Part shown: positions 11,214 to 38,150 of the stretch, one piece after another
Layout of the letters: each line of letters begins with the position of its first letter
Position numbering within the stretch: position 1 is the first letter of the stretch
DNA from: a virus
IMG/VR virus record: IMGVR_UViG_3300031521_000017
Strand: one strand, 5' to 3'
Length of the DNA stretch: 44,987 nt
The notes under the pieces: generated by a model
Databases searched by the model: none
Told to the model about the DNA's origin: nothing
The model's input: only the letters and a program-made list of their open reading frames with translations
Program-made: the position numbers and the translations under genes

Positions 11214-12950
11214 TTAAGCAGGAGTATAGAACATCATATCTGCAATATTTCTAGTCTTTCTCTTTCTATTTCGATCTTCTTCTTTCTTTATGTGATAAAG
11301 ACCATATTCAAAAGCAGAAAACTTGTCTTTCTTAATTCCTCGACTAGACTGTTTCAAAATAATATTAACTCCTTCATTTTCCTCAACTAAATTAAGCATC
11401 TGTTCCCGCAAAATAGTGGTAAGAGTGAAGGGCCGCAAATAATCTGCTCTTTTCTCAATAGACATAGCTTGTCCCATTTTAGTAGTCATTAATTTTAACT
11501 TAGCTTGGTTTTCATCAATCAAAAACCGCACTTTTCCACTTGAGAGTTGCGTCTGCGCGTAGGTATGAGCCTCTGTGTTAATTGGCGCATTAGCTTTAAT
11601 AATATACATAGCATCAATAATAGTGTCATTCGTTCTAAATTTGCGATATGTGTTATCATCATCATTCTCAACGCCCCAGTTTTCAAGTAGGTTTCCTTCT
11701 TCATCCTCTTGGTCCAAAACCAAAAAGTCAACAAGACCTACTCCAAGTCCGTTCGCGTCAACAACGCAGATTCGCGCATTATACTTCTTAAATAATTTCT
11801 TAATAGCAATAGCTTGAATCCCGAAGTGTTCTGCTTCAATAGTGAAAATGTTAACTAAAGTTTTGCGAGAACTTCCTTGTGCTTGCGGCGTAACCTTAAA
11901 TATCATAATTTCAGTGGTACACTTTAAGCGTCCAACGTCAACACTAAGTAAATAATAAGCATCTTTTCCTGATCGCTTACTATATTCATACTCAGGCTGA
12001 AGTAGCACTCTGTGCTTATCGAATTTCTCTGAAGAGAAGAAAGAGTTCTCCGCATCTCCAGACCATTCACTTTCATACTCTCGCGCGAAAGAAGCCTCGT
12101 TGAAAGTACCATCATTCTTCAAATCCCGCACGAAATTCTTATCCAGCAATTTTTCAAGAACTGGAACTCTCCAAGAACCACCAAGAATAAAAGCTTCTTT
12201 AGGATTGATAATTTGGTTTACAAGAATTTGAATTAATTTTTCATAAGAAAAAGTATTCTTATATCCCGCAGTAGTCACATAAATTTGGCTTTTGTTAAGT
12301 ACTTCTTCTGGTTTGAACTTTCCATTAACATATCTAGAAACGTTCATAAGAGGAATTAAAATCTCGTTCAAAATCTGCTGCGGAATTGTCACGCACTCTT
12401 CTAGAAGTCCACCATGGAAACGCAAACCTCTTGAGCGTTCATTTGCCGCAACGTTCTGCATAACAGAACCATTCTTAAAGGTATATCTAATTTGATCTTT
12501 AGCTGTGGTTGATTTACCTGGGGACCAGTCAATCTCATTGTGAAAACTAGGAATAAGACAACAGATCTCTTCAACCTTCGCGCGCACGATCGCCGCAGAT
12601 TGCTCTTTACCTCCGGTACTAATGAAGAGATGCGCGTTCGGGAAAAGGATGCATCTAATTATTAGGGCGAGAATGCTTAGAAACGACTTACTATACGCAC
12701 GAGGGAATACCGCATACACATATCGGCATCTCATAACAATTCTGAGGAAAATTCTCTGGTAAAAGAAGAGATTAAAAGTTGAATCCGGACCTTTCATAAA
12801 GTCTACGAATACATCAGGATACTCTCTCCAGTAGGATACCACTTTCCGCACATTAGGAATTTGTGCCGCAATTCTCTCCTCAGATAAACCTTGTTTCTTT
12901 GAAAGGTTATTTCCTAATTGCAATAAGTCTTTAAGCGCCATTTTCATCAT
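11214..12950 (-). CDS. terL: terminase large subunit
   Basis: 578 aa; deviant Walker-A-like FPRAYSKSF; a C-terminal RNase-H-like segment (LLSVDVG...); position upstream of the portal; the start overlaps the upstream ORF. Confidence 0.75.
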   Translation of the reverse strand: MMKMALKDLLQLGNNLSKKQGLSEERIAAQIPNVRKVVSYWREYPDVFVDFMKGPDSTFNLFFYQRIFLRIVMRCRYVYAVFPRAYSKSFLSILALIIRCILFPNAHLFISTGGKEQSAAIVRAKVEEICCLIPSFHNEIDWSPGKSTTAKDQIRYTFKNGSVMQNVAANERSRGLRFHGGLLEECVTIPQQILNEILIPLMNVSRYVNGKFKPEEVLNKSQIYVTTAGYKNTFSYEKLIQILVNQIINPKEAFILGGSWRVPVLEKLLDKNFVRDLKNDGTFNEASFAREYESEWSGDAENSFFSSEKFDKHRVLLQPEYEYSKRSGKDAYYLLSVDVGRLKCTTEIMIFKVTPQAQGSSRKTLVNIFTIEAEHFGIQAIAIKKLFKKYNARICVVDANGLGVGLVDFLVLDQEDEEGNLLENWGVENDDDNTYRKFRTNDTIIDAMYIIKANAPINTEAHTYAQTQLSSGKVRFLIDENQAKLKLMTTKMGQAMSIEKRADYLRPFTLTTILREQMLNLVEENEGVNIILKQSSRGIKKDKFSAFEYGLYHIKKEEDRNRKRKTRNIADMMFYTPA

Positions 12951-14297: not shown

Positions 14298-15371
14298 CTA
14301 CTTCTTTTTAGTATTGCGGCAACTTTTACATACTGAGTAGAAACCATCCTTGGAAGTCTTGTTTTTTGAGAAGAATGTGTTGTGAGCTAGTTTGATCTGG
14401 CCGCATCTACTACATTTCTTCCACTTAGCTTTTTCTTCCATTGTGAAATGATAAATTAACCATTCTTCCTGAGCTTTGTTTGCTATTAATTTAGGTATCT
14501 TATTGCGCCATAGAGAGGATAAATACTCAAGAGAGTGTTTAATACCAAAATCCGCATCTAACTTCTCTTGTATTTCTAAATTGGTATCTCCATCAATTTT
14601 ATATACCAAGAGATCAAACAAGAGAGGATGTTTTTCATATAGGGTCCGCATTATTAAATCATCTAAGTCCATTAATAAGAAATGCATATCGTACCCTAAG
14701 TCTTCCCATACCTCTTGCTTCAAAGCGGAGTAATGACACAATAGAGCTTCGACATGCGCGGGATTGTATAGATTTACATATCCTGTGCTGCGGACCTCTT
14801 GGTTATCATTAAGATAGACTGTTTCTGGTAACTCTGTCTTGGCCAAAGATTTAATTAAAGCATTCGCTTTAGCTGGTTCTTTTGCGCCATTACGGATTAC
14901 ATATTGATCCTGCCGCATTTGAATTAGGTGTTTCTTCAATAGGAAAGCTCTTTTGCCAGTCCCGATAGCCTTAGTTGCCATAGGGGCCATGATTGAGATA
15001 ACATCTACTAAAGATTTGAGTGCGGGAATAGTGTCAATTTCTTCTTGCGTGATTGGGGCTTTAGGGGAGAGAAGGGTGTTCTTATCTTCCCGCATAAGAT
15101 TATAAATTCCATCTTCTCCATTTTCTAACTTATCTACTAATGCTTCGTAGGACGTTTCCCTTTTATTCACAGTGACCATGCGGTCTTCAGTTAAAATTTT
15201 TCTTTGTCTGCGCTCTTTTTTGTCGGCTGTTAAAATGATATAGTTTGCTAATATTTCTTTATATTGCGAGGTCAAGTGTGAAGAAGGAGTATTTTCTACG
15301 ATTTGGTGTACGAGTAATGTCCGCTCTTCGGGGGATTCCAAAGAGTAATCGAGTTTGATCTGCTTTTGCAT
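14298..15371 (-). CDS. 357-aa first gene of the leftward operon, with a C-terminal Cys4 zinc ribbon (CSRCG...CKSC)
   Basis: GAAAGGAGAG ribosome-binding site; a consensus promoter lies immediately upstream. Confidence 0.5.
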   Translation of the reverse strand: MQKQIKLDYSLESPEERTLLVHQIVENTPSSHLTSQYKEILANYIILTADKKERRQRKILTEDRMVTVNKRETSYEALVDKLENGEDGIYNLMREDKNTLLSPKAPITQEEIDTIPALKSLVDVISIMAPMATKAIGTGKRAFLLKKHLIQMRQDQYVIRNGAKEPAKANALIKSLAKTELPETVYLNDNQEVRSTGYVNLYNPAHVEALLCHYSALKQEVWEDLGYDMHFLLMDLDDLIMRTLYEKHPLLFDLLVYKIDGDTNLEIQEKLDADFGIKHSLEYLSSLWRNKIPKLIANKAQEEWLIYHFTMEEKAKWKKCSRCGQIKLAHNTFFSKNKTSKDGFYSVCKSCRNTKKK

Positions 15372-17341: not shown

Positions 17342-17389
17342 GCAAATAGTGTGACAACTCGCTTAGACAGAAGTTGGCACACTGCTTGC

Positions 17390-17405
17390 TGGCCGCGCGC
17401 GGCCA
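17390..17405. repeat. GC palindrome TGGCCGCGCGCGGCCA followed by AAGTTTTG (module 1)
   Basis: Member of a family of 7 GC hairpins, each followed by an A3-4T3-7 tract. Confidence 0.6.
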
Positions 17406-17412
17406 AGTTTTG

Positions 17413-17441
17413 ACTATACCACGAAGGCCACCATTTGTCAA
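17413..17441 (-). promoter_or_regulatory. predicted leftward promoter (minus strand TTGACA-N17-TATAGT) firing into the palindrome
   Basis: The reverse complement of the TTGTCAAGAGGA box is a perfect -35 box; TATAGT sits 17 nt away; the same arrangement recurs in modules 2, 4 and 5. Confidence 0.45.
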
Positions 17442-17486
17442 GAGGAAAACTCGAAAAAGATTTCTTTCTTTCTTTTCCCGAAACCC

Positions 17487-17515
17487 TTGCATCCTCCCAT
17501 CCAAGGTGCTAAGAT
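17487..17515 (+). promoter_or_regulatory. island-type rightward promoter CCCGAAACCC-TTGCAT-N17-TAAGAT
   Basis: Conserved upstream CCYGAAACCC context shared by 5 other island promoters. Confidence 0.5.
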
Positions 17516-17556
17516 GTATCTACGAGGTAAGAGGAACACGAACTTAGGAGCCAGAC

Positions 17557-17951: not shown

Positions 17952-17980
17952 TTGTCAGTGTCAAAGAACTATGCTACAAT
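17952..17980 (+). promoter_or_regulatory. promoter TTGTCA-N17-TACAAT
   Basis: Shares the TGCTACAATGAACTTACAGG -10 and start region with the promoter at 23949. Confidence 0.5.
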
Positions 17981-18441: not shown

Positions 18442-18475
18442 AAGAGACAATCTCAGAAAGTTGAGATTGTCTCTT
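18442..18475. terminator. 14-bp perfect hairpin AAGAGACAATCTCA-GAAAGT-TGAGATTGTCTCTT
   Basis: Hairpin only; flanked by a weak U-tract on the minus strand; could terminate transcripts from either direction. Confidence 0.45.
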
Positions 18476-18485
18476 GACATTTCGA

Positions 18486-18503
18486 CGCGCCGTGGGCGGC
18501 GCG
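18486..18503. repeat. GC palindrome CGCGCCG-TGGG-CGGCGCG followed by AAAATCT (module 2)
   Basis: Palindrome family member. Confidence 0.6.
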
Positions 18504-18511
18504 AAAATCTG

Positions 18512-18540
18512 ACAGTATCATACAATCGAGTATTTGTCAA
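18512..18540 (-). promoter_or_regulatory. predicted leftward promoter (minus strand TTGACA-N17-TACTGT)
   Basis: Same geometry as modules 1, 4 and 5. Confidence 0.4.
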
Positions 18541-18584
18541 GAGGAAAACTCAAAAATTATTTAGAATTAATTTTGCCTGAAACC

Positions 18585-18613
18585 TTGCTATCTTCTATCT
18601 GGTTTGCTATGCT
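18585..18613 (+). promoter_or_regulatory. island-type promoter CCTGAAACC-TTGCTA-N17-TATGCT
   Basis: Conserved context. Confidence 0.5.
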
Positions 18614-18648
18614 TAGCCTACGAAAAGCTACTAAGAAAGGAATTGGTC

Positions 18649-19326: not shown

Positions 19327-19363
19327 CAAAAACCAGTAAAATCCTATTGGCACGGATTTTGCT

Positions 19364-20540: not shown

Positions 20541-20565
20541 AGAAAGTTGGCATGAAATTTGCTGG

Positions 20566-20583
20566 CGCGCCGCCCACGGCGCG
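20566..20583. repeat. GC palindrome CGCGCCG-CCCA-CGGCGCG followed by AAATTTTT (module 4)
   Basis: Family member. Confidence 0.6.
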
Positions 20584-20591
20584 AAATTTTT

Positions 20592-20620
20592 ACTATAACA
20601 CACCAGGCCAACTTTGTCAA
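20592..20620 (-). promoter_or_regulatory. predicted leftward promoter (minus strand TTGACA-N17-TATAGT)
   Basis: Nearly identical to module 5 (TTGACAAAGTTGGCCTGGTGTGTTATAGTAAAAATTTCGC versus TTGACAAAAGTGGCTCAGTGTGTTACTGTAAAAATTTCGGC). Confidence 0.5.
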
Positions 20621-20665
20621 GAGAAAAACCAGAATTATTTTTCTTTTTTTCTTCTCCTGAAACCC

Positions 20666-20694
20666 TTGTCGCCTTGCCGCACCTGTGGTACAAT
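20666..20694 (+). promoter_or_regulatory. island-type promoter CCTGAAACCC-TTGTCG-N17-TACAAT
   Basis: Conserved context. Confidence 0.5.
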
Positions 20695-20728
20695 CAACAG
20701 ACAACAGACCACAACAGAAAGCGAAACA

Positions 20729-21068: not shown

Positions 21069-21806
21069 ATGGCTCGCAAGTCTCCCGCTCTCGCACTTGT
21101 GGTAGATGTCGAAACCTGCGGAGGTTTTGGCTCTCCTCATGTGTACGACCTTGGATTTGCGGTGGTCAATCCTAAGACTGCCGAGATTGTCGAATCGCAT
21201 TCCCTCCTCATTCCTGAAGTGTTCTACGGAATGTCTAAGGAGATGAATACCTGCTACTATGTGGAGAAGCTGCCGCAGTATATCGCGGGTATCGAGGAGG
21301 GTTCTTGGACAGTCACGCCGTTCTGGACTGCTTGGAACCTCGTGCGAAACACGATGCGAAAGTATGGTATCCGCAAGGTGTATGCCTATAACTGTGGCTT
21401 CGACCGTGGCGCACTTGACAGTACCATTAAGGCGATGACGTGCAACAAGTGGTCGCACTTCTTCCCCAAGGGTACAGAGTATTGCGACATTTGGCATATG
21501 GCTTGCCAGACCATCATGAGCCAGCGAAACTTCGTTAAGTTTTGCAACCGTCATGGGTATGTCTCGGATGCGGGAAATATCCGAACGTCTGCGGAGGTGT
21601 GCTACGCTTACATTACCAGACAGCCACACTTCGAGGAGTCACATACGGGGCTGGAAGATGTTCTCATCGAAGCTGCCATTCTCGCGCATGTTCTTCGCAC
21701 CAAGCGCGGCAAGGTGGACGAAAGTCTGACCGCTATGCCGTGGAAGATTCCGCAAGTTGTGCGGAAGGAGATGCAGAGAGCGCAAGGAATGTCAACCCTG
21801 TTCTAA
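21069..21806 (+). CDS. DEDDh-family 3'-5' exonuclease (DnaQ / RNase T / oligoribonuclease-like fold)
   Basis: Exo I motif LVVDVETCG, Exo II motif YAYNCGFDRGAL, Exo III motif H-x4-D (SHTGLEDVLIEAAIL); about 245 aa. Confidence 0.6.
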   Translation: MARKSPALALVVDVETCGGFGSPHVYDLGFAVVNPKTAEIVESHSLLIPEVFYGMSKEMNTCYYVEKLPQYIAGIEEGSWTVTPFWTAWNLVRNTMRKYGIRKVYAYNCGFDRGALDSTIKAMTCNKWSHFFPKGTEYCDIWHMACQTIMSQRNFVKFCNRHGYVSDAGNIRTSAEVCYAYITRQPHFEESHTGLEDVLIEAAILAHVLRTKRGKVDESLTAMPWKIPQVVRKEMQRAQGMSTLF

Positions 21807-21837: not shown

Positions 21838-21873
21838 TCAAAAAAACACTTGACAAATCTATGGGAAAATGCG

Positions 21874-21891
21874 CGGCGCGTGGACGCGCCG
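21874..21891. repeat. GC palindrome CGGCGCG-TGGA-CGCGCCG followed by AAATTTTT (module 5)
   Basis: Family member. Confidence 0.6.
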
Positions 21892-21899
21892 AAATTTTT

Positions 21900-21928
21900 A
21901 CAGTAACACACTGAGCCACTTTTGTCAA
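21900..21928 (-). promoter_or_regulatory. predicted leftward promoter (minus strand TTGACA-N17-TACTGT); its transcript would run through the palindrome into the bidirectional terminator (about 90-nt RNA)
   Basis: Geometry as in modules 1, 2 and 4; a terminator lies 60-90 nt downstream on the minus strand. Confidence 0.45.
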
Positions 21929-21972
21929 GCAAAATCCGCAGAAAAGAAATCTTTTTTTTTTGCCCAAAACCC

Positions 21973-22001
21973 TTGCTATTGTCAACTAGTCAGCGTACAC
22001 T
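21973..22001 (+). promoter_or_regulatory. island-type promoter CCCAAAACCC-TTGCTA-N17-TACACT
   Basis: Conserved context. Confidence 0.5.
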
Positions 22002-22041
22002 AGACCTACAAGAGAACAACCCGTCAACAACAGGAGTTAAC

Positions 22042-22491
22042 ATGCCGTGCAAGAAAATCTTCTTCGACCTCGATGGAACGGTCTATCCTCTGTATGACCA
22101 AGAGGGATGGTTGGACAAACTTCACGCTAGTGACCCTTCTGCTTATGCGGTCGAAGATACTATGGTCCCCTCGGAGGAACTTCTTGACGCTCTCTGCGAC
22201 CTCATGGGCGCGGGATATGAAATCGGCGTTATCTCTTGGCTCGCGCGCAACGCCTCCAAAGAATACGAGCAGGAGACACGCGAAGTCAAGAGAGCATGGA
22301 TAAAGAAGTTTCTTCCTATGGCTTCTGAAATCCATATCGTCCGATATGGCACACCCAAGCAAGGTGTTATCCGCAAGCAGCCACTGGCGATTCTCGTCGA
22401 TGACGATGCGAACGTGCGCGCGGCATGGTGTCATGGTCTTACAATCGACCCGACCAAGAATCTCATAAAGAGGTTGCGCTCGCTCATCTAG
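22042..22491 (+). CDS. HAD-superfamily phosphatase (149 aa)
   Basis: Motif I FFDLDGTV near the N-terminus; motif IV ILVDDDANV near the C-terminus; GGAG ribosome-binding site. Confidence 0.55.
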   Translation: MPCKKIFFDLDGTVYPLYDQEGWLDKLHASDPSAYAVEDTMVPSEELLDALCDLMGAGYEIGVISWLARNASKEYEQETREVKRAWIKKFLPMASEIHIVRYGTPKQGVIRKQPLAILVDDDANVRAAWCHGLTIDPTKNLIKRLRSLI

Positions 22492-22536
22492 TGTGCTATA
22501 CTCTATACAACGACAAACAAGAAAGAAGGTTCGACA

Positions 22537-22791
22537 GTGAAAACCAACGAAATCATATTCGCCGCCGATTGTTCAGAGAACATCATAAATGCTCTGGTGG
22601 CGGTGTACCAGAATTCAACATACCAAGGAGGTCAGCATGACCTCACCACTTGCCGCATATGCCATGCGGAGCAAAACTGGGGTGGTAATGGAAGGGGTTG
22701 GAACCTAACGCACAAACCTCTGTGGAATGGTCAGCCCTGCCCAGTCGGAACGCTGGAAACTCTTCTCCAAGAGTTTTACAAGGAGGGATAG
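22537..22791 (+). CDS. 84-aa hypothetical protein (GTG start)
   Basis: ORF; start uncertain. Confidence 0.3.
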   Translation: MKTNEIIFAADCSENIINALVAVYQNSTYQGGQHDLTTCRICHAEQNWGGNGRGWNLTHKPLWNGQPCPVGTLETLLQEFYKEG

Positions 22792-22793
22792 AG

Positions 22794-23051
22794 ATGGGCA
22801 ATCCCTGCCAACAATGCAGACTCGACAATGGTAAATGCTCCTACTGGGACGAAGACAACCCCGATAACAACTTCTCACTCTCCACCGGCTATGATGAAGA
22901 TGGGGATTGTATGGCAGAAGATGCTGACTTCCCCGGCGACATATGCGAGAATTACCAAGCTGACCTCGCGGGAGACTACTGCGACCGCTGCGGCAATTAT
23001 CTCGGGAGTGAAGATGACGACGAAGAAAGCGAGTGTATCTGCAATGATTGA
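22794..23051 (+). CDS. 85-aa highly acidic Cys-rich protein (MGNPCQQCRLDNGKCSYWDEDNPDNN...DDDEESECICND)
   Basis: AAGGAGGGATAGAG ribosome-binding site; about 30% D/E; CxxC pairs. Confidence 0.45.
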   Translation: MGNPCQQCRLDNGKCSYWDEDNPDNNFSLSTGYDEDGDCMAEDADFPGDICENYQADLAGDYCDRCGNYLGSEDDDEESECICND

Positions 23052-23319
23052 TGTCGCTTGCGCCAACTATAACGGGCGCCATCGTTCTTGTGAGTGTTTC
23101 GACCTCGCAAGTGAGGATGACATTTCCAAAATGCTCTGCGACCACTTGGGAACTTGTGATGGATGGGGGAGTGAAACCTCCTGCATTAACTTCAAAGAGG
23201 CCGAAAGTTACTTCGAAAAAGATGAAGATGATGAATGCGATGGGAACTGTCCTTGCATCGACCTTTGTGATGAGGGTTCTGGAATGGTTCGAGAGACAAA
23301 ATGGCCTAAGATCTTCTGA
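23044..23319 (+). CDS. 91-aa acidic Cys-rich protein 2 (MIDVACANY...DEDDECDGNCPCIDLCDEG...)
   Basis: ATGATTGATG overlap with the upstream gene; acidic and cysteine-rich. Confidence 0.45.
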   Translation: MIDVACANYNGRHRSCECFDLASEDDISKMLCDHLGTCDGWGSETSCINFKEAESYFEKDEDDECDGNCPCIDLCDEGSGMVRETKWPKIF

Positions 23320-23351
23320 AATGCATCAATTTCATGTAATTATGCATGAAA

Positions 23352-23371
23352 TTGGCCCGCGTGCGGGCCAA
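23352..23371. repeat. GC palindrome TTGGCCCGC-GT-GCGGGCCAA followed by AATTT (module 6)
   Basis: Family member. Confidence 0.6.
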
Positions 23372-23477
23372 AATTTCAAATATCGTGCCAAAACCACCTT
23401 TTTTCGCCCAAAACAGCGAAAAATCTTGATTAATCTTCATTTCCCGAAATTAATTTAAGTTTATTTGCTATTTGGGG

Positions 23478-23506
23478 TTGTTTCTGCCGCAGAATAATGC
23501 TACAAT
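23478..23506 (+). promoter_or_regulatory. promoter TTGTTT-N17-TACAAT with an upstream CCCGAAA element
   Basis: Conserved -10 TGCTACAATGG. Confidence 0.4.
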
Positions 23507-23562
23507 GGTTTTGTTGAGAAAGAAGGAAGTGAGGCGGGAGCCTCCAAACGAAAGGCGTGACC

Positions 23563-23916
23563 ATGAACAAGAAGATGACCAAGCGCGAGATGTTCACCGC
23601 TGCTATCGCAATTGTTGCGGCTGCGAATGTCCCCGGAACCCCTGCTGTGGTGGAGGGTTTGAAGCACGAGCTGGAGTTGCTCAACAAGAAGTCCGCAGAT
23701 GGCAAGGGCAGCGCCAAGCACGCTGCCGAGGTTCGTGCCAACATGGACAAGGTTGTGACTGTCCTGTCTGATGAGGGCATCCGCGCCGCAGATGTTGGAA
23801 CTCTCGCAGACTTCTCGATTCAGAGGACTACGGCCCTCCTGAAGAAGCTTGTGGACAGCGGCGAGGTTGTCAGGGACGAGGTTAAGAAGGTAGCCTACTT
23901 CTCTCTCGCGGAGTAA
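23563..23916 (+). CDS. paralog B of the K/A-rich winged-helix-like family
   Basis: Alignable to 19992 (MNKKMTKREMF... / ...GIRAADVGTLADFSIQRTTALLKKLVDSGEVVRDEVKKVAYFSL). Confidence 0.55.
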   Translation: MNKKMTKREMFTAAIAIVAAANVPGTPAVVEGLKHELELLNKKSADGKGSAKHAAEVRANMDKVVTVLSDEGIRAADVGTLADFSIQRTTALLKKLVDSGEVVRDEVKKVAYFSLAE

Positions 23917-23948: not shown

Positions 23949-23977
23949 TTGTCCTAGTCGTGCCAATGTGCTACAAT
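23949..23977 (+). promoter_or_regulatory. promoter TTGTCC-N17-TACAAT
   Basis: Shares 20 nt (TGCTACAATGAACTTACARG) with the promoter at 17952. Confidence 0.5.
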
Positions 23978-24027
23978 GAACTTACAAGAAACAACGAACG
24001 CCCTACGGGGCAAGAAGGAGAGTTAGC

Positions 24028-24273
24028 ATGGAGTTTACTGTTATTGACACTTATGACTGCGAAACATCGCGTTTCGACACGTTGGACGCCGCGAGAGCGT
24101 ATGCTAAATCAGTCGCAGAGTGGCTGGTCGAGAGAGAGTATTTCGGTGAAACAGTCACAATCTCTATGATTGTTCCTTTTGAGGCTTGTGAAACTATCAG
24201 GCCGACGCCGGCTCCACCGATTGAGTTCTGCACTTGTCAGACAGTAGTGGTTACCACGACTGTCTGCGGATAG
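24028..24273 (+). CDS. 81-aa hypothetical protein
   Basis: GAAGGAGAG ribosome-binding site. Confidence 0.4.
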   Translation: MEFTVIDTYDCETSRFDTLDAARAYAKSVAEWLVEREYFGETVTISMIVPFEACETIRPTPAPPIEFCTCQTVVVTTTVCG

Positions 24274-24403: not shown

Positions 24404-24524
24404 AATTTGACAGAAAACATCCTATAGGCATTTTTTGCCTTACCTCGTGACCCTTCTATATAGACTATAAAATTCCCAATATAGACCCCATAAGCCTTAT
24501 ATCGCCTAGCTCAAAAGATTTCTA

Positions 24525-24553
24525 TTGACACTTTTTTTGAAATGTGTTATAAT
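24525..24553 (+). promoter_or_regulatory. consensus sigma-A promoter TTGACA-N17(TGTGT)-TATAAT with an AAAAGATTT UP-like element
   Basis: One of three near-identical promoters (24525, 25181, 25912). Confidence 0.6.
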
Positions 24554-24625
24554 GAGATATAAGGAAAAAGGGAATGCATAAAAGGTGTGTTCCACAGAAT
24601 AAACAGAGAGGTTCGGTGTATTAAG

Positions 24626-25000
24626 GTGACGAAGGTTACGAAGCGCAACCAGTTTGTTGCTGTCCAGGAGATCCTGACTGGTCTCGGCGAGACGGATCGA
24701 GCAGACTTCATCGGTGCTCAGATTGCTCTTATCGACAAGCGCAAGACTGCAGACCGCAAGCCCACGAAGGCTCAGGAGGCTAATGCTGAGATCAAGGAGA
24801 GTATTGTCGAGACTCTCATTGGCTTTGATGGTCTGACTGCGACTGAGGTTGCAGGTACCGAGGACATCTCAGTCCAGAAGGCCAGCCAGCTGCTTACGCA
24901 GCTTGTGGCTGCGGAGATTGTTATCCGCGTCGAGGGCAAGGGCAAGGAGAAGACTAAGTTCAGCCTCGCTAATCGTGCGGAGGTTGACGCCGCAGAGTAA
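24626..25000 (+). CDS. paralog C of the K/A-rich winged-helix-like family (GTG start; an alternative GTG lies at 24587)
   Basis: With GTG at 24626 the N-terminus MTKVTKRNQF aligns with paralogs A, B and D; C-terminal part ...GLTATEVAGTEDISVQKASQLLTQLVAAEIVIRVEGKGKEKTKFSL. Confidence 0.5.
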   Translation: MTKVTKRNQFVAVQEILTGLGETDRADFIGAQIALIDKRKTADRKPTKAQEANAEIKESIVETLIGFDGLTATEVAGTEDISVQKASQLLTQLVAAEIVIRVEGKGKEKTKFSLANRAEVDAAE

Positions 25001-25180
25001 GTTATCTTAACCGAGAGGTTCCTCCGAAGTCCGAGGATTAAATAGGCAGGCTCCAGGTCCAGCCTCTCCACAAAGATAAGTTAGTTTTTTGGCCCTTAGT
25101 TCTACAAGGGACAGGCCATCCCGCCACGAGTCGCGACTCAGTGGAACTAACGGCTAAAAAGCTAACTTAAAAGATTTTGT

Positions 25181-25209
25181 TTGACAAAAAATAAAAAATA
25201 TGTTATAAT
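25181..25209 (+). promoter_or_regulatory. consensus sigma-A promoter TTGACA-N17-TATAAT
   Basis: AACTTAAAAGATTTTGTTTGACA upstream context. Confidence 0.6.
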
Positions 25210-25250
25210 AGAGATAACGAAAAAAGAAAAATCTAAAAAGGAGCTGCCGC

Positions 25251-25646
25251 ATGCGCTACGATCTCGATGGTAAGAATATCAACATCCCTGACAACTTCAT
25301 TGACACCAGCATGCACAATCTCGGCATCACTCGTCAGGAAGCTATTGACCTCTACCTGTCAGACAATGACTTCATTACTAACGATGAGATTGTCGCCATG
25401 ACAGTTAAGGCTAAGGCCGCAGGCACTGGTGCTAAGGCAACGGGGGAGAAAGTTGCCCACAAGGCTCCAGAGCGCAAGCCCGATCTCGTTAAGCGTGCAG
25501 TTATTGCTGCCCTTTCTGAATTCATCACGGGCACTGAGCACGTTGAGAATGTCACTATTACCAATATCGAGCGAATGATTGCTTTCGAAATTGGTGGAGA
25601 TAAGTTCGAAGTCGTGCTTACCAAGAAGCGTAAGCCCAAGGAGTAA
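25251..25646 (+). CDS. 131-aa hypothetical protein
   Basis: AAAGGAG ribosome-binding site. Confidence 0.5.
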   Translation: MRYDLDGKNINIPDNFIDTSMHNLGITRQEAIDLYLSDNDFITNDEIVAMTVKAKAAGTGAKATGEKVAHKAPERKPDLVKRAVIAALSEFITGTEHVENVTITNIERMIAFEIGGDKFEVVLTKKRKPKE

Positions 25647-25911
25647 TTACAATATGGGCCGGATATGACACGAAGTCATAGAAGAGACTTTCCGGGAGTA
25701 GGAGATCGGTACCCTACAATTTAATTATACCAGCAGGTCCAGTTTGCGACAGAGTAATGGGGCGGAACGATCATCCGCACTCCTGCTGATATAAAATCTT
25801 TTAAGTTGGCTTCTCAGTGGTGACGCGTAACCCGCCGTTGTCTCAGCTCTGGATGGCCATTCAACTGAGCCTTTTCAAAAAAATTTGAGAAGTCAACTTA
25901 AAAGATTTTCA

Positions 25912-25940
25912 TTGACAACTTTTCAAAAATGTGTTATAAT
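25912..25940 (+). promoter_or_regulatory. consensus sigma-A promoter TTGACA-N17-TATAAT
   Basis: CAACTTAAAAGATTTTCATTGACA upstream context. Confidence 0.6.
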
Positions 25941-25980
25941 AAGATATAGAAAAAAACAAAAGAAAGAAATGAGGAATACC

Positions 25981-35674: not shown

Positions 35675-36205
35675 ATGGATACAAAAGGCGTGTATATTGG
35701 GAGATTTAATCCAATACACGTTGGACACGGGCGGGTAGTCCGGACCATGCTCAATGAGTGTGGGTTAAAAAATTCAGTGATTGTAATAGGTTCGAGTAAC
35801 GCAGAGTTTTCTGCTCGAAACATTTTCAATTACTTGGACCGGACCTCTTTTATTAAAAAGCTATTCCCAAATTCCAACGTGATAGGATTGCCTGATTTCC
35901 CAGACTCGAACGAAGCCTGGCTCGCTAATCTGGATTCTATTTTGGAGTTTGGGAATTTTCATATTCAAGACACTATGCTATATACTGGAGACGCCAATGA
36001 TCTTCAAGCGCAACTATTCACACAGGCAAATCGCCCCATTAGGATAGTAGAGAGAGAAGAAATGCCAGGAGTTTCTGGGACAAACGTCCGCGAAGCATTG
36101 CTGAATAAACAATGGGATTTAGCAGCTTCTATGCTTGACCCCATAGTCGCAAATGATATTATTAAGGAGAGTAAATGCAATCTGAATATAAACGGACTCT
36201 GTTAA
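35675..36205 (+). CDS. nicotinamide/nicotinate mononucleotide adenylyltransferase (NadM-type NMNAT)
   Basis: (H/T)xGH nucleotidyltransferase motif GRFNPIHVGH at the N-terminus; about 176 aa; adjacent to the NAMPT and Nudix genes. Confidence 0.6.
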   Translation: MDTKGVYIGRFNPIHVGHGRVVRTMLNECGLKNSVIVIGSSNAEFSARNIFNYLDRTSFIKKLFPNSNVIGLPDFPDSNEAWLANLDSILEFGNFHIQDTMLYTGDANDLQAQLFTQANRPIRIVEREEMPGVSGTNVREALLNKQWDLAASMLDPIVANDIIKESKCNLNINGLC

Positions 36206-36750
36206 AAGAAACTCCTTTTCTGCACTTAAATGAGGTTGAATACTTCGACCATGAGGGTGTATTAAAGAAATGGTACGGAGTTAGTAGAAAAAACAGCACT
36301 CCTGCAGTGCAAGTGGCAGCGATCACAGAAGAGAACGAACTTGTTCTTGTCACTCAGTATCGTCCCTATATTGATAGTATGACTATTGAATTGCCTGCGG
36401 GATTAATGGATGTGCCGGGTGAGTCTGTAATTGATTGTGCGGAGCGCGAATTGCTCGAAGAGACTGGATTCCAAGGAGATGGTAATACATTACATGCTCT
36501 TGGAGGCGAGCGTGGACTTACAGTTTCAGCCGGACTTACAGATGAGCGTATTCATCTTGTTATTGTTACTGGGTGTGTAAAAGTTGCAGATCCATATACA
36601 AATGAAGGAACCCATCCTTTTCTTGTCCCTTTACGGGATGCAGAGGAAATTCTGTATCCTTTCACTTCAACAGGGAAGAAATTCAATATCAGTTTTGGCC
36701 TATTTGGCACCTTGTATATAATTCGAAACTACCTTAATGGAGGGCTATAA
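36175..36750 (+). CDS. Nudix hydrolase (ADP-ribose pyrophosphatase-like)
   Basis: Nudix box GLMDVPGESVIDCAERELLEETG; overlaps the NMNAT gene by 31 nt. Confidence 0.6.
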   Translation: MQSEYKRTLLKETPFLHLNEVEYFDHEGVLKKWYGVSRKNSTPAVQVAAITEENELVLVTQYRPYIDSMTIELPAGLMDVPGESVIDCAERELLEETGFQGDGNTLHALGGERGLTVSAGLTDERIHLVIVTGCVKVADPYTNEGTHPFLVPLRDAEEILYPFTSTGKKFNISFGLFGTLYIIRNYLNGGL

Positions 36751-38150
36751 TGAATCCTATTTTGAGCACGGATAGCTATAAGGCATCTCACTTTTTGCAA
36801 TTCCCACCTAATATGACGGGTATGTTTAGCTATCTTTCTTCAAGAGGTGGAAGATACGACCACACTCTTTGGTTTGGACTAAAGCCAATTATTCAAAAGT
36901 ATCTCCAGGTTCGTATTACAAAGGAAATGGTCTTGGAAGCACAAGAGTTCTTCTTGGCTCATGGCGAGCCATTCCCTTATGATGGTTGGATGAAGGTTGT
37001 CAACTATTATAATGGCCTTGTTCCTCTAAAGATTAAGGCAGCCCCAGAGGGGGCTGTAGTCCCAGTTCACAATGCTCTTATGACTGTTTCTTGTACCGAT
37101 CCAGATCTGTTTTGGCTTGTCTCTTGGTTTGAGACTCTTCTTGTACGAGTTTGGTATCCTACGACAGTAGCAACGTCTTCAATGTATGCGAAGAAAACTA
37201 TCTTGGAGGCTTTGATTAAGACTGCGGACGATCCCGAAGGAGAAATTCCTTTCAAGCTTCACGACTTTGGGGCGAGAGGAGTTTCCTCAGGAGAGTCTGC
37301 GGCAATCGGTGGCGCCGCTCACCTTGTAAACTTCATGGGTTCTGACACTGTAGAAGGTGTCGTTTTCGCCAACAAGGTTTATGGAGTCGAAGGAGGTATG
37401 GCCGCATTCTCAATACCTGCGGCGGAACACTCTACTATTACCTCTTGGGGCAAGGAGAATGAGGTAGAAGCATATCGAAACATGGTAAAGCAGTTTGCTA
37501 AGCCAGGATCAATTCTTGCAGTCGTGTCTGACTCTTACAATCTTTGGGATGTGCTGGAGAATATGTGGGGCGATGAGCTGAAGCAGATGGTAATTGACTC
37601 AGGCGCTACAGTCGTTATTCGTCCAGACTCTGGAATCCCAAGAGATGTCGTTCTTCAAGCTCTTCAGGTGCTCGACCAGAAGTTTGGGCACACTATCAAT
37701 AGTAAGGGGTATAAAGTTCTAAATAATGTAAGAATCATACAGGGAGATGGAATTACCGCAGATTCTATCCCAGAGATTATTGATAACTTTGTGAATGCGG
37801 GATATTCTGCAACGAATGTTGGCTTTGGTATGGGAGGCGGCCTTCTTCAACAAGTTAATAGAGACACTCAACGATTTGCCTATAAATGTTCTGCGGCTCT
37901 TATTAATGGGGAATGGACCCCAGTATATAAGGATCCAATTACTGATCCTGGAAAGGCTTCTAAGAAGGGAGTTTTTACTCTTTGGAGAGATAAGGATGGA
38001 TTCCGCACTGGCCCTATTAATGAGCCTTGGGAAGACACAAAAGTATCTGCTCTACACACGGTATACAATGAAGGAAGAGTTGCCTTTGATGGTAACTTCG
38101 ATGATATTAGGAATCGTGCGGCTCAAGGGCTAAAGGCCATAATGAACTAG
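36750..38150 (+). CDS. nadV: nicotinamide phosphoribosyltransferase (NAMPT / NadV)
   Basis: 466 aa; the N-terminus NPILSTDSYKASHF is characteristic of NAMPT. Confidence 0.7.
   Translation: MNPILSTDSYKASHFLQFPPNMTGMFSYLSSRGGRYDHTLWFGLKPIIQKYLQVRITKEMVLEAQEFFLAHGEPFPYDGWMKVVNYYNGLVPLKIKAAPEGAVVPVHNALMTVSCTDPDLFWLVSWFETLLVRVWYPTTVATSSMYAKKTILEALIKTADDPEGEIPFKLHDFGARGVSSGESAAIGGAAHLVNFMGSDTVEGVVFANKVYGVEGGMAAFSIPAAEHSTITSWGKENEVEAYRNMVKQFAKPGSILAVVSDSYNLWDVLENMWGDELKQMVIDSGATVVIRPDSGIPRDVVLQALQVLDQKFGHTINSKGYKVLNNVRIIQGDGITADSIPEIIDNFVNAGYSATNVGFGMGGGLLQQVNRDTQRFAYKCSAALINGEWTPVYKDPITDPGKASKKGVFTLWRDKDGFRTGPINEPWEDTKVSALHTVYNEGRVAFDGNFDDIRNRAAQGLKAIMN

What the first reader, a model, noticed from the sequence alone, without database searches (positions are those of the whole stretch)
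22794..23319. Two translationally coupled, highly acidic, Cys-rich small proteins: candidate DNA mimics or Zn-binding anti-defence factors
The 85-aa and 91-aa products are about 25-30% Asp/Glu and carry multiple CxxC/CxC pairs (CQQCRLDNGKC...CDRCGNY...ECICND; CECFD...CDGNCPCIDLCDEG). Phage anti-restriction DNA mimics (Ocr, ArdA) are similarly acidic. The pair sits in the early island downstream of the nuclease and phosphatase genes.
Basis: inference. Interest (0 to 1): 0.55.

Follow-up and report, generated by a model that had tools for sequence, protein, structure and literature searches.

The report
Acidic four-cysteine phage protein pair
Two adjacent small phage genes encode extremely acidic, cysteine-rich proteins that belong to a tiny, previously undescribed family found only in a few uncultured phages; they are real and probably metal-binding, but their supposed role as DNA mimics or anti-defence factors remains untested.

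Summary
ORF A (22794-23051, 85 aa, 29% Asp/Glu, 9 Cys, pI about 3.2) and ORF B (23044-23319, 91 aa, 24% Asp/Glu, 10 Cys, pI about 3.9) overlap by 8 nt (ATGATTGA) and are compositional outliers in the window.

New points:
- A has clear homologues in related uncultured phages. BLASTP to L012 gives 1e-11, and a leave-out HMM gives 21.6 bits against 0 of 1000 shuffles.
- An A-type then B-type gene pair recurs in three other phages (L012, L016, L092), with the start and stop overlapping or 1 nt apart.
- A-type and B-type proteins share one acidic mini-domain of about 50 residues with four conserved Cys, so they look like paralogues. Membership of the window's own B is weak (p about 0.01) and rests on synteny and motif spacing.
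- The family is tiny: 14 clusters among 5.8 billion proteins, no Pfam, PHROG, NCBIfam or PDB match, and none in 50,697 GenBank phages.
- It is dispensable: one copy is decaying in L017 and cleanly deleted in L011.
- AlphaFold models are unusable (pLDDT about 50).

Best reading: metal-stabilised polyanionic accessory proteins made about 1:1 from an early operon, plausibly decoys for a basic host surface. Function is inferred, not shown.

The parts
21858..22010 (+). Conserved intergenic regulatory cassette upstream of the operon: GC hairpin 21874-21891, a TTTGTCAAG box, a T-rich tract, then sigma-70-like -35 (CCTTGC) and -10 (TACACT) elements.
   Evidence: Four copies lie in the early region, at 17397, 18496, 20576 and 21884. 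They are aligned. The hairpin is listed.
22042..22491 (+). First gene of the operon: HAD-superfamily phosphatase / 5'-nucleotidase-like protein (149 aa, FDLDGTV motif).
   Evidence: phrog_2643 5'-3' deoxyribonucleotidase at 4.4e-5. TIGR01681 HAD-IIIC at 1.2e-3, below its cut-off. Orthologues are present in all related loci.
22537..22791 (+). ORF U: 84-aa small protein with a conserved Cys/His pattern (QHD..CRICHxEQNW..THK..CPVG). Probably metal-binding. Its stop lies 2 nt before the A start.
   Evidence: Homologues at L012 7127-7402 (4.6e-23) and L013/L095 (8.5e-21). No Pfam, PHROG or NCBIfam hit. It is not always linked to A/B.
22794..23051 (+). ORF A: 85 aa, pI about 3.2, 9 Cys. It has an N-terminal acidic four-Cys mini-domain (C5, C15, C39, C51, plus W18, D34, G37) and a C-terminal CDRCG...ECIC knuckle.
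   Evidence: Homologues are in L012, L016, L017, L022 and L092. BLASTP to the L012 copy gives 1e-11. The leave-out HMM gives 21.6 bits against 0 of 1000 shuffles.
23044..23319 (+). ORF B: 91 aa, pI about 3.9, 10 Cys. A diverged B-type member (C6..Y9.G11..C16xC18FD..C32D..G36xC38) with a 26-residue insertion and an atypical C-terminus (CDGNCPCIDLC). Its start overlaps the A stop by 8 nt. The alternative start is at 23014.
   Evidence: Same position and coupling as the B-type genes of L012, L016 and L092. Sequence support is weak: hhalign E 0.0097, and HMM 2.8 bits with 10 of 1000 shuffles at or above it.
23352..23371 (+). GC-rich hairpin (TTGGCCCG cgtg CGGGCCAA) 33 nt after the B stop. It is one copy of a repeated intergenic element that probably marks the end of the transcription unit. 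It is not a canonical T-tailed terminator.
   Evidence: Repeat family D6, with copies at 19358, 23348 and 24380. Sequence. It is not listed among the terminator-like sites.
23557..23916 (+). Next transcription unit: a winged-helix-like 'K(H)TKRE(L/M)F' protein with its own sigma-70-like promoter (23478-23507). This conserved downstream neighbour of the A/B pair is context, not part of the pair.
   Evidence: 39% identical (5e-23) to the gene that follows the pair in L012. The same arrangement occurs in L016, L092 and L095. Promoter family D4. Weak HTH hits.

Best explanation
A and B are two diverged copies of a previously undescribed mini-domain of about 50 residues. The domain is extremely acidic and has four conserved cysteines. 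It occurs only in a small clade of uncultured phages whose terminase resembles that of large Bacillota siphoviruses (Enterococcus phage H1, Geobacillus E3, YonF type).

Shown:
- Both are the last genes of a four-gene early-type operon (HAD phosphatase, U, A, B).
- B starts inside the A stop region.
- The A-type then B-type order and the tight start/stop junction recur in three other divergent phages. Roughly equimolar synthesis of the two proteins is therefore likely, though that step is inferred.
- The family is dispensable.

Inferred mechanism:
- The polypeptides have too little hydrophobic core and too much charge to fold unaided.
- They probably fold around metal ions, most likely Zn2+. 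The ligands would be the four conserved Cys plus the extra CxxCG...CxC knuckle carried by at least one partner.
- The result would be compact polyanionic proteins, possibly an A-B heterodimer.
- These would act early in infection as accessory host-interference factors by occupying a basic, nucleic-acid-binding surface of a target protein, in the manner of a DNA-mimic decoy.
- The target is unknown.
For: Real genes and family:
- A matches L012 at 1e-11.
- The leave-window-out A-type HMM gives 21.6 bits against a shuffle maximum of 2.1.
- In the joint alignment C5, C15, D34, G37 and C39 are invariant and C51 is near-invariant. P0007 has only these four Cys.
- A-type and B-type are related. The B-type HMM scores A_win at 0.5 bits, reached by 1 of 1000 shuffles. 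The B HMM hits A_L012 at 4.8e-6.

Conserved pair and coupling:
- Junctions are ATGATTGA in the window, TAAcATG in L012, ATGA in L016 and an 11-nt overlap in L092.

Operon and early context:
- Repeated promoter cassettes and hairpins flank the unit.

Disorder without metal:
- All ten members tested fall on the disordered side of the charge-hydropathy boundary.
- AF2 gives pLDDT of about 50.

Accessory nature:
- The L017 copy has ATA in place of ATG and a TAG at the conserved Trp codon.
- The gene is precisely absent from L011, whose flanking sequence is about 76-90% identical to L017.
- Position and copy number vary among relatives.

Charge density:
- A has 25 negative and 3 positive residues in 85 aa. 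Ocr has 34 negative and 6 positive in 116 aa (PMC3439906).
Against: - There is no experimental or structural evidence for metal binding, dimerisation or any target.
- The conserved Cys spacing (Cx9-10C ... Cx8-11C) is not a classic CxxC zinc knuckle. Disulfides or an Fe-S cluster are not excluded.
- No homology to any known DNA mimic or anti-defence protein was found.
- Small acidic ORFs are numerous in the fetched loci of relatives (39 distinct), so acidity is not specific.
- Family membership of the window's B is statistically weak.
- A competing basic ORF (23051-23458) also abuts the A stop.
- All public copies of this locus are 100% identical, so no population-level selection signal is available.
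Confidence: 0.35

Rival explanations
1. The proteins act on the phage itself. A and B would be acidic antirepressor- or anti-regulator-type proteins that bind the DNA-recognition surface of the phage's own winged-helix 'KTKREMF' paralogues, which are always encoded directly downstream. They would time the early-to-middle switch rather than counter host defence.
For: The A/B pair or a B-type gene lies immediately upstream of a wHTH paralogue in the window, L012, L016 and L095, and about 1.5 kb upstream of one in L092. Several wHTH paralogues and conserved operator-like boxes (TTTGTCAAGAGGAAAAC) occur in the early cassettes. A precedent for an acidic antirepressor that mimics operator DNA is CarS (PMC2926617, listed; abstract only).
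Against: L011 and L022 keep the wHTH genes without an adjacent A/B pair. A dedicated regulator of essential timing would not be expected to be lost or pseudogenised. The wHTH genes are separate transcription units.
Confidence: 0.15
2. A and B are small redox or metal-handling proteins: rubredoxin- or ferredoxin-like Fe or Fe-S carriers, or metal buffers. They would serve phage metabolism in an anaerobic host and would not be protein-binding decoys.
For: Four conserved Cys and low pI are also typical of rubredoxins and ferredoxins (general knowledge). A rubredoxin-type CxxCG knuckle occurs in the C-terminal module. The phage carries other auxiliary metabolic genes (NMNAT, Nudix and NAMPT). U, directly upstream, is also a Cys/His protein.
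Against: No Pfam or NCBIfam hit to rubredoxin, ferredoxin or any Fe-S family, even at E<=1, for any of 13 members. The Cys spacing is unlike CxxC...CxxC or CxxCxxC...C. There is no partner oxidoreductase in the operon. The gene is readily lost.
Confidence: 0.12
3. Only A is a gene. The B frame would be a by-product of GA-rich sequence, and the real downstream gene would be the +1-frame ORF 23051-23458 (135 aa, basic) or none at all.
For: Gene callers chose the 135-aa frame on two identical contigs, L001 and L010. Its ATG overlaps the A stop (TGATG). B_win is not significantly similar to B-type homologues by phmmer and is only marginal by HMM and hhalign. Codon-usage scoring discriminates poorly.
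Against: The alternative frame has no homologue in any related locus. It reads through the hairpin and cassettes that are repeated in other intergenic regions. B keeps the CxCFD-16-CDxxGxC spacing, the composition, the position and the coupling of the B-type genes in three other phages. The B frame scores better than the alternative frame (0.158 against -0.078).
Confidence: 0.1
4. A and B are precursors of modified or secreted Cys-rich peptides: RiPPs such as SCIFF or sactipeptide-like products, or disulfide-rich exported peptides.
For: They are small and have many Cys.
Against: No signal peptide or leader-like region is visible. There is no radical-SAM, Lan-type or other maturase and no transporter in the operon or neighbourhood. 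No NCBIfam hit at E<=0.01, so the curated RiPP-precursor models did not match. The extreme acidity is atypical.
Confidence: 0.03

Closest known systems
T7 Ocr (gp0.3) and ArdA, the classic DNA-mimic anti-restriction proteins
   Same: Small early phage or mobile-element proteins with comparable negative charge density. Ocr has 34 acidic and 6 basic residues in 116 aa (PMC3439906); A has 25 and 3 in 85 aa. They are accessory genes expressed at the start of infection.
   Different: No sequence similarity was found in Pfam or PHROGs. Ocr and ArdA fold without metal and have no Cys clusters. A and B have about 11% Cys with four conserved positions, are much poorer in hydrophobic residues, and are predicted to be disordered without a cofactor. 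DNA-like charge geometry could not be tested because the models are poor.
Small Cys4 zinc-ribbon or zinc-knuckle phage proteins (for example Lar/Ral-type restriction-alleviation proteins, phrog_5558) and rubredoxin-type knuckles
   Same: Small size, several Cys pairs, and a CxxCG knuckle followed by a second Cys pair at the C-terminus of A and of several relatives.
   Different: No family reaches significance. The best hits are zf-FPG_IleRS at E 0.098 and Zn_clus at 0.035, both below their cut-offs. The conserved core uses widely spaced single Cys (Cx9-10C ... Cx8-11C), not two knuckles. The extreme acidity is unusual for zinc ribbons.
Acidic Cys-rich Ca2+-binding modules of extracellular proteins (LDL-receptor class A, thrombospondin type 3 repeats, cbEGF)
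   Same: Short Asp/Glu-rich modules with conserved Cys and a D-x-x-G-x-C-like motif (DExGxC here).
   Different: No Pfam hit at E<=1 for any of 13 members. There is no signal peptide, and the genes are cytoplasmic early phage genes. The Cys count (4) and spacing also differ.
CarS antirepressor of Myxococcus (operator-DNA mimic)
   Same: A small acidic protein that blocks a DNA-recognition helix. This is a conceptual analogue for the rival reading that A and B target the adjacent wHTH proteins.
   Different: CarS has an SH3-like fold without Cys clusters (PMC2926617, abstract only). No homology was tested or expected.

Membership tests
Ocr (T7 gp0.3) DNA mimic | Detectable sequence homology to the Ocr family | tested here: not met
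   No Pfam or PHROG hit for A or B at E<=1. No hit for any of 13 family members. tblastn against 50,697 phage records found no match.
Ocr (T7 gp0.3) DNA mimic | Extreme excess of acidic over basic residues | tested here: met
   A has 25 acidic and 3 basic residues in 85 aa; B has 22 and 8 in 91 aa. Ocr has 34 and 6 in 116 aa (PMC3439906).
Ocr (T7 gp0.3) DNA mimic | Folded structure that displays carboxylates in a B-DNA-like array | tested here: inconclusive
   AF2 models have pLDDT 50.3 and 48.2. Foldseek against the PDB gave no match at E<=0.001.
Ocr (T7 gp0.3) DNA mimic | Inhibition of type I restriction-modification or BREX | not testable with these tools
   This needs plaque or restriction-alleviation assays.
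ArdA anti-restriction | Sequence homology to ArdA | tested here: not met
   No Pfam, PHROG or NCBIfam hit.
Zinc-ribbon / rubredoxin-type Cys4 proteins | Two CxxC(G) knuckles that match a curated zinc-finger or rubredoxin model | tested here: not met
   Only sub-threshold hits: Zn_clus at 14.6 bits against a cut-off of 21, and zf-FPG_IleRS at 13 bits against 21.3. The conserved core Cys are single and widely spaced. The C-terminal CxxCG...CxC of A is knuckle-like but is not conserved family-wide.
Zinc-ribbon / rubredoxin-type Cys4 proteins | Stoichiometric metal bound by four Cys | not testable with these tools
   Four conserved Cys are compatible with this. ICP-MS or a PAR assay is needed.
Metallothionein | Very high Cys content (about 15-30%) in CxC/CxxC clusters, with few aromatic residues | tested here: not met
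   Cys is 6-16% across members and 11% in A and B. Conserved aromatic residues (W18 or F, Y/F after C51) and a dominant Asp/Glu content are present.
SCIFF / RiPP precursor peptides | An adjacent maturase (radical SAM or similar) and a match to a precursor model | tested here: not met
   No NCBIfam hit. No maturase-like gene was seen: none of the called genes in the ten identical loci carries such a Pfam family, and no such hit appeared among the neighbours scanned.
New 'acidic four-Cys mini-domain' family defined here (P0001, P0002, P0005-P0016 plus the locus copies) | C-x9-10-C ... D-x-x-G-x-C ... C-x-x-[YF] core in a protein of 50-90 aa with at least 24% Asp+Glu | tested here: met
   A: met with statistics. 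B: the motif and its spacing are present, but support is marginal (hhalign E 0.0097; 10 of 1000 shuffles at or above its score). B's membership therefore rests largely on conserved synteny and coupling.

The most novel reading that the evidence does not exclude
A and B define a new class of anti-defence or host-takeover effector: a translationally coupled heterodimer of metal-clustered, otherwise disordered polyanionic mini-domains. Metal ions would replace a hydrophobic core to build a rigid DNA-like charge array. This would be a structural solution to DNA mimicry unrelated to Ocr, ArdA or the acidic anti-CRISPRs.
Probability: 0.15. Interest if true: 0.7.

Novelty: new variant of a known kind. 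Interest (0 to 1): 0.42.

Why it matters
Small acidic early phage proteins are a rich source of inhibitors of restriction, BREX, CRISPR and host DNA or RNA enzymes. The known ones are metal-free folds. A conserved four-Cys, metal-dependent polyanionic domain made as a coupled pair would be a new architecture for such inhibitors.

It would also be a compact (50-90 aa) candidate for screening against defence systems of Bacillota. Even without a known function, the work defines a new orphan family, with its motif, its gene-pair rule and its accessory behaviour. The family can now be searched for and tested.

Tried and rejected
Searches that found nothing:
- Single-sequence searches of 5.8 billion proteins with A and with B returned only themselves.
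- An exhaustive phmmer of B against 1.84 billion representatives gave only itself plus two compositional repeat-protein hits, P0003 and P0004, rejected after reading them.
- Megablast of the locus and tblastn of A and B against GenBank phages gave no match.
- IMG/VR scans with A and with sub-family alignments found no relatives. The full-family alignment was too divergent for the tool.
- The genome-contig scan found only the already known MAG contig, so it gave no host clue.
- Pfam, PHROGs, NCBIfam and PDB sequence profiles gave nothing significant. The weak PDB hit to the Cx9C protein NDUFA8 (E 1.7) was rejected as a match on composition and Cys spacing.
- Two literature searches found no described acidic Cys-rich phage family.

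Analyses that were uninformative:
- AF2 with a 13-sequence alignment gave pLDDT of about 50 for both proteins. The Foldseek results are therefore meaningless, and no match reached E<=0.001.
- Population variation could not be used, because ten public contigs are 100% identical over the locus.
- Codon-usage frame scoring barely discriminates between frames.

Considered and set aside:
- The 101-aa start for B (23014), because homologues begin M-x(1-6)-C.
- The 163-aa ORF from 22828, because the extension is not open in L012.
- The antisense 146-aa ORF, which has no homologues.

Full report
**1. What is in the sequence**

ORF A (22794-23051, + strand) encodes 85 aa behind a strong Shine-Dalgarno sequence (aaGGAGGgatagagATG).
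- It has 25 Asp/Glu (29.4%), 3 Lys/Arg and 9 Cys.
- Calculated pI is 3.20 and net charge is about -22.

ORF B (23044-23319) encodes 91 aa.
- It has 22 Asp/Glu (24.2%) and 10 Cys; pI is 3.94.
- Its ATG lies inside ATGATTGA, so it overlaps the A stop by 8 nt.

Across 74 non-overlapping ATG-initiated ORFs picked greedily in the window, median Cys is 1.6% (maximum 7.2%) and median Asp+Glu is 13.4% (maximum 21.6%). Both proteins are therefore clear outliers.

**2. Are they genes, and in which frame?**

Ten public contigs carry this locus, but all are 100% identical over 22401-23500. Population variation therefore gives no help.

Gene callers on those contigs agree on A and disagree on B.
- Some call a 101-aa version starting at 23014.
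- Some call the +1 frame 23051-23458, a basic 135-aa ORF.

I anchored a metagenome scan on the neighbouring exonuclease-like gene and searched the six-frame ORFs of 80 related loci.

A has unambiguous homologues.
- They are at L012 11286-11510, in L016 (P0007), at L092 3187-3429, at L022 1333-1512 and at L017 1550-1690.
- BLASTP of A against the L012 copy gives 50% identity over 44 residues, E 1e-11.
- An HMM built without the window sequences scores A at 21.6 bits. The maximum over 1000 composition-preserving shuffles is 2.1.

B is much more diverged.
- Against the long B-type proteins (P0005, P0006, P0013), hhalign gives E 0.0097 over residues 14-38.
- The HMM score is 2.8 bits, reached by 10 of 1000 shuffles.

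What supports B is the combination of several features.
- It has the same position, the same composition and the same coupling to an A-type gene as in the relatives.
- The spacing of CxCFD-16-CDxxGxC is identical.
- The N-terminal C-x-x-Y-x-G motif is shared.

The evidence against the competing frames is as follows.
- The alternative +1 frame and the antisense 146-aa ORF have no homologues.
- The +1 frame reads through intergenic elements that are repeated elsewhere.
- Homologues start M-x(1-6)-C, which favours 23044 over 23014.

I treat B as a probable gene and give about 10% to the rival that it is not.

**3. A new family, and A and B as probable paralogues**

A joint alignment of A-type and B-type proteins shows one shared core: C-x9-10-C-x-x-[WF]-[DE]-E-[DE] ... 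P-x-[GS]-x-D-[ED]-x-G-x-C-x-x-[DE][DE] ... C-x-x-[YF].
- C5, C15, D34, G37 and C39 are invariant, and C51 is nearly so (A numbering).
- P0007 contains exactly these four Cys.
- The B-type HMM, built without window sequences, scores A above all but 1 of 1000 shuffles. An earlier B HMM hit A_L012 at 4.8e-6.

A second, movable module is CxxCG-x(5-17)-C-x(1-3)-C.
- It ends A_win, A_L012, A_L092, B_L012, B_L016 and P0013.
- In every A-B pair at least one partner carries it.

A profile search of 5.8 billion proteins found only 14 clusters. All are metagenomic, unnamed and without Pfam domains. Nothing matched in Pfam, PHROGs, NCBIfam, PDB sequences, IMG/VR or 50,697 GenBank phages.

**4. Conserved gene-pair rule**

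An A-type gene is immediately followed by a B-type gene in the window, L012, L016 and L092. The exonuclease-like proteins of these phages are only 52-74% identical to the window's in L012 and L016.

The junction is always tight.
- Window: ATGATTGA.
- L012: TAAcATG.
- L016: ATGA.
- L092: an 11-nt overlap.

In the window, L012 and L016 the pair is the last coding unit before an intergenic region. It is then followed by an orthologous winged-helix-like 'KTKREMF' gene, 39% identical between the window and L012 at 5e-23. L092 has the same order, but with a gap of about 1.5 kb without called genes. In L022 the two types are unlinked, and L095 has only a B-type gene.

**5. Context**

The window comes from a phage with a YonF-type large terminase.
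- The terminase is 46% identical to that of Enterococcus phage H1 and 45% to that of Geobacillus virus E3.
- Most cultured hits infect Bacillota, so a Bacillota host is likely by inference.

The + strand region from about 16 to 27 kb is a series of short operons. They are separated by repeated cassettes made of a GC hairpin, conserved boxes and sigma-70-like promoters. One cassette (21858-22010) precedes the HAD gene, and a repeated hairpin (23352-23371) follows B. The unit is therefore HAD (22042-22491), U (22537-22791), A and B.

U is itself a conserved Cys/His small protein. The exonuclease-like gene (21069-21806) lies in the preceding unit.

**6. Accessory behaviour**

- In L017 the A-type gene has ATA in place of ATG and a TAG at the conserved Trp codon.
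- In L011 the 260-nt gene is precisely absent. The flank on one side is about 90% identical to L017 and the other about 76%.
- More distant gut and rumen relatives (exonuclease 40-47% identical) have no detectable member.

**7. Mechanism**

All ten members tested lie far on the disordered side of the charge-hydropathy boundary. AlphaFold2 with the 13-sequence alignment gives pLDDT 50 and 48, and Foldseek finds nothing.

A short domain with four conserved Cys, a few conserved aromatic residues and almost no hydrophobic core is most simply explained as a metal-stabilised fold. This step is inferred. Zn2+ is the most likely metal in a cytoplasmic protein, but Fe or Fe-S and disulfides are not excluded.

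Translational coupling of two paralogues suggests a 1:1 complex (inferred).

Extreme negative charge, early expression and dispensability fit a decoy for a basic, nucleic-acid-binding surface. That is a DNA-mimic-like mode of action, with charge density equal to that of Ocr (PMC3439906). No homology or structural evidence links the family to Ocr or ArdA.

Acidity is also not specific here. A scan of the related loci for small, strongly acidic ORFs returned 39 distinct ones. Some may be chance ORFs, since they were not checked as genes.

I put 0.35 on the metal-stabilised polyanionic host-interference decoy. The rivals are:
- antirepressor-like action on the phage's own wHTH proteins (0.15);
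- redox or metal carrier (0.12);
- B not being a gene (0.10);
- RiPP or secreted peptide (0.03).

**8. Verdict**

This is a previously undescribed orphan family with a definable motif and a conserved gene-pair arrangement. I class it as a new variant of the known kind 'small acidic accessory early phage proteins'. Interest is moderate.

Noticed in passing
window 35675-38150 (+): Three adjacent genes resemble an NAD+ salvage or reconstitution cassette of the kind reported in phages that counter NAD+-depleting defence systems (recalled from the literature, not checked here). They are an NMN adenylyltransferase-like gene (35675-36205), a Nudix/NudE-like hydrolase (36175-36750) and nicotinamide phosphoribosyltransferase (36750-38150, phrog_448 at 1.7e-148).
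   Followed up: partly
window 17370-17530, 18470-18630, 20550-20710, 21858-22045: A conserved intergenic cassette of about 150 nt precedes four early operons. It consists of a GC hairpin, AAATTTTGAC..TAACAC, an invariant TTTGTCAAG box, a T-rich tract, CCGAAACCCTTGC (-35-like) and a TGnTAnnAT -10-like element. The invariant box could be an operator for the phage's wHTH paralogues.
   Followed up: partly
window 23949-23978, 24510-24569, 25166-25225, 25897-25956: Near-consensus sigma-70 promoters recur in front of successive small genes. They include TTGACA-17-TGTTATAAT and the TTGTCA...TGCTACAAT family, whose other copies start at 17952, 19916 and 23478. This marks the region as host-RNAP-dependent and early.
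   Followed up: no
L017 1555-1814 versus L011 about 9775: The A-type gene in L017 carries ATA in place of ATG and an in-frame TAG at the conserved Trp codon. The whole gene is cleanly missing from L011, where one flank is about 90% identical to L017 and the other about 76%. This looks like gene decay and loss caught in progress.
   Followed up: yes
window 23557-23916 and 24587-25000 (possibly also 25251-25646); L012 7560-7976 and 11938-12294; L016 5248-5598 and 6032-6382: An array of paralogous proteins of about 117 aa starts with K(H)TKRE(L/M)F and ends with a winged-helix-like motif (weak HTH_20/TrmB and Ren-like hits). Each has its own promoter, and the array is conserved across the clade.
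   Followed up: partly
window 14298-15371 (-): A phage sigma-factor-like protein (phrog_5767 at 1.9e-47) has a C-terminal stretch of about 45 aa that also matches endonuclease VII, HNH and Lar-like models. The stretch looks like a fused zinc ribbon.
   Followed up: no
L012 10746-11276 (C-terminal about 75 aa); L022 53-196; L062 3262-3498; L091 11969-12325; L087 and L060 C-termini: Related and more distant phages encode other small Cys-rich acidic proteins. Examples are MPRVQMSDQCLKCLESDNF... directly upstream of the L012 pair, 'CPYWKEDGSC...ECDDA' proteins, and a recurring C-terminal FNPYMGCYDYDC motif. These may be further distant branches or independent families. None is significant with the present HMMs.
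   Followed up: no
L012, L016, L022, L095 (ends of several small genes): Many small proteins end in ...PQPEG or ...PQVEG. The terminal GAGGGnTAG doubles as the Shine-Dalgarno sequence of the next gene; window ORF U ends ...KEG* in the same way. This suggests pervasive coupling of the small early genes.
   Followed up: no
window 24028-24273 (+): An 81-aa acidic protein with 5 Cys (C-terminal FCTCQTVVVTTTVCG) has an orthologue in L012 (within ORF 12167-12649, C-terminal part). It is another conserved Cys-containing small early protein of unknown function.
   Followed up: no
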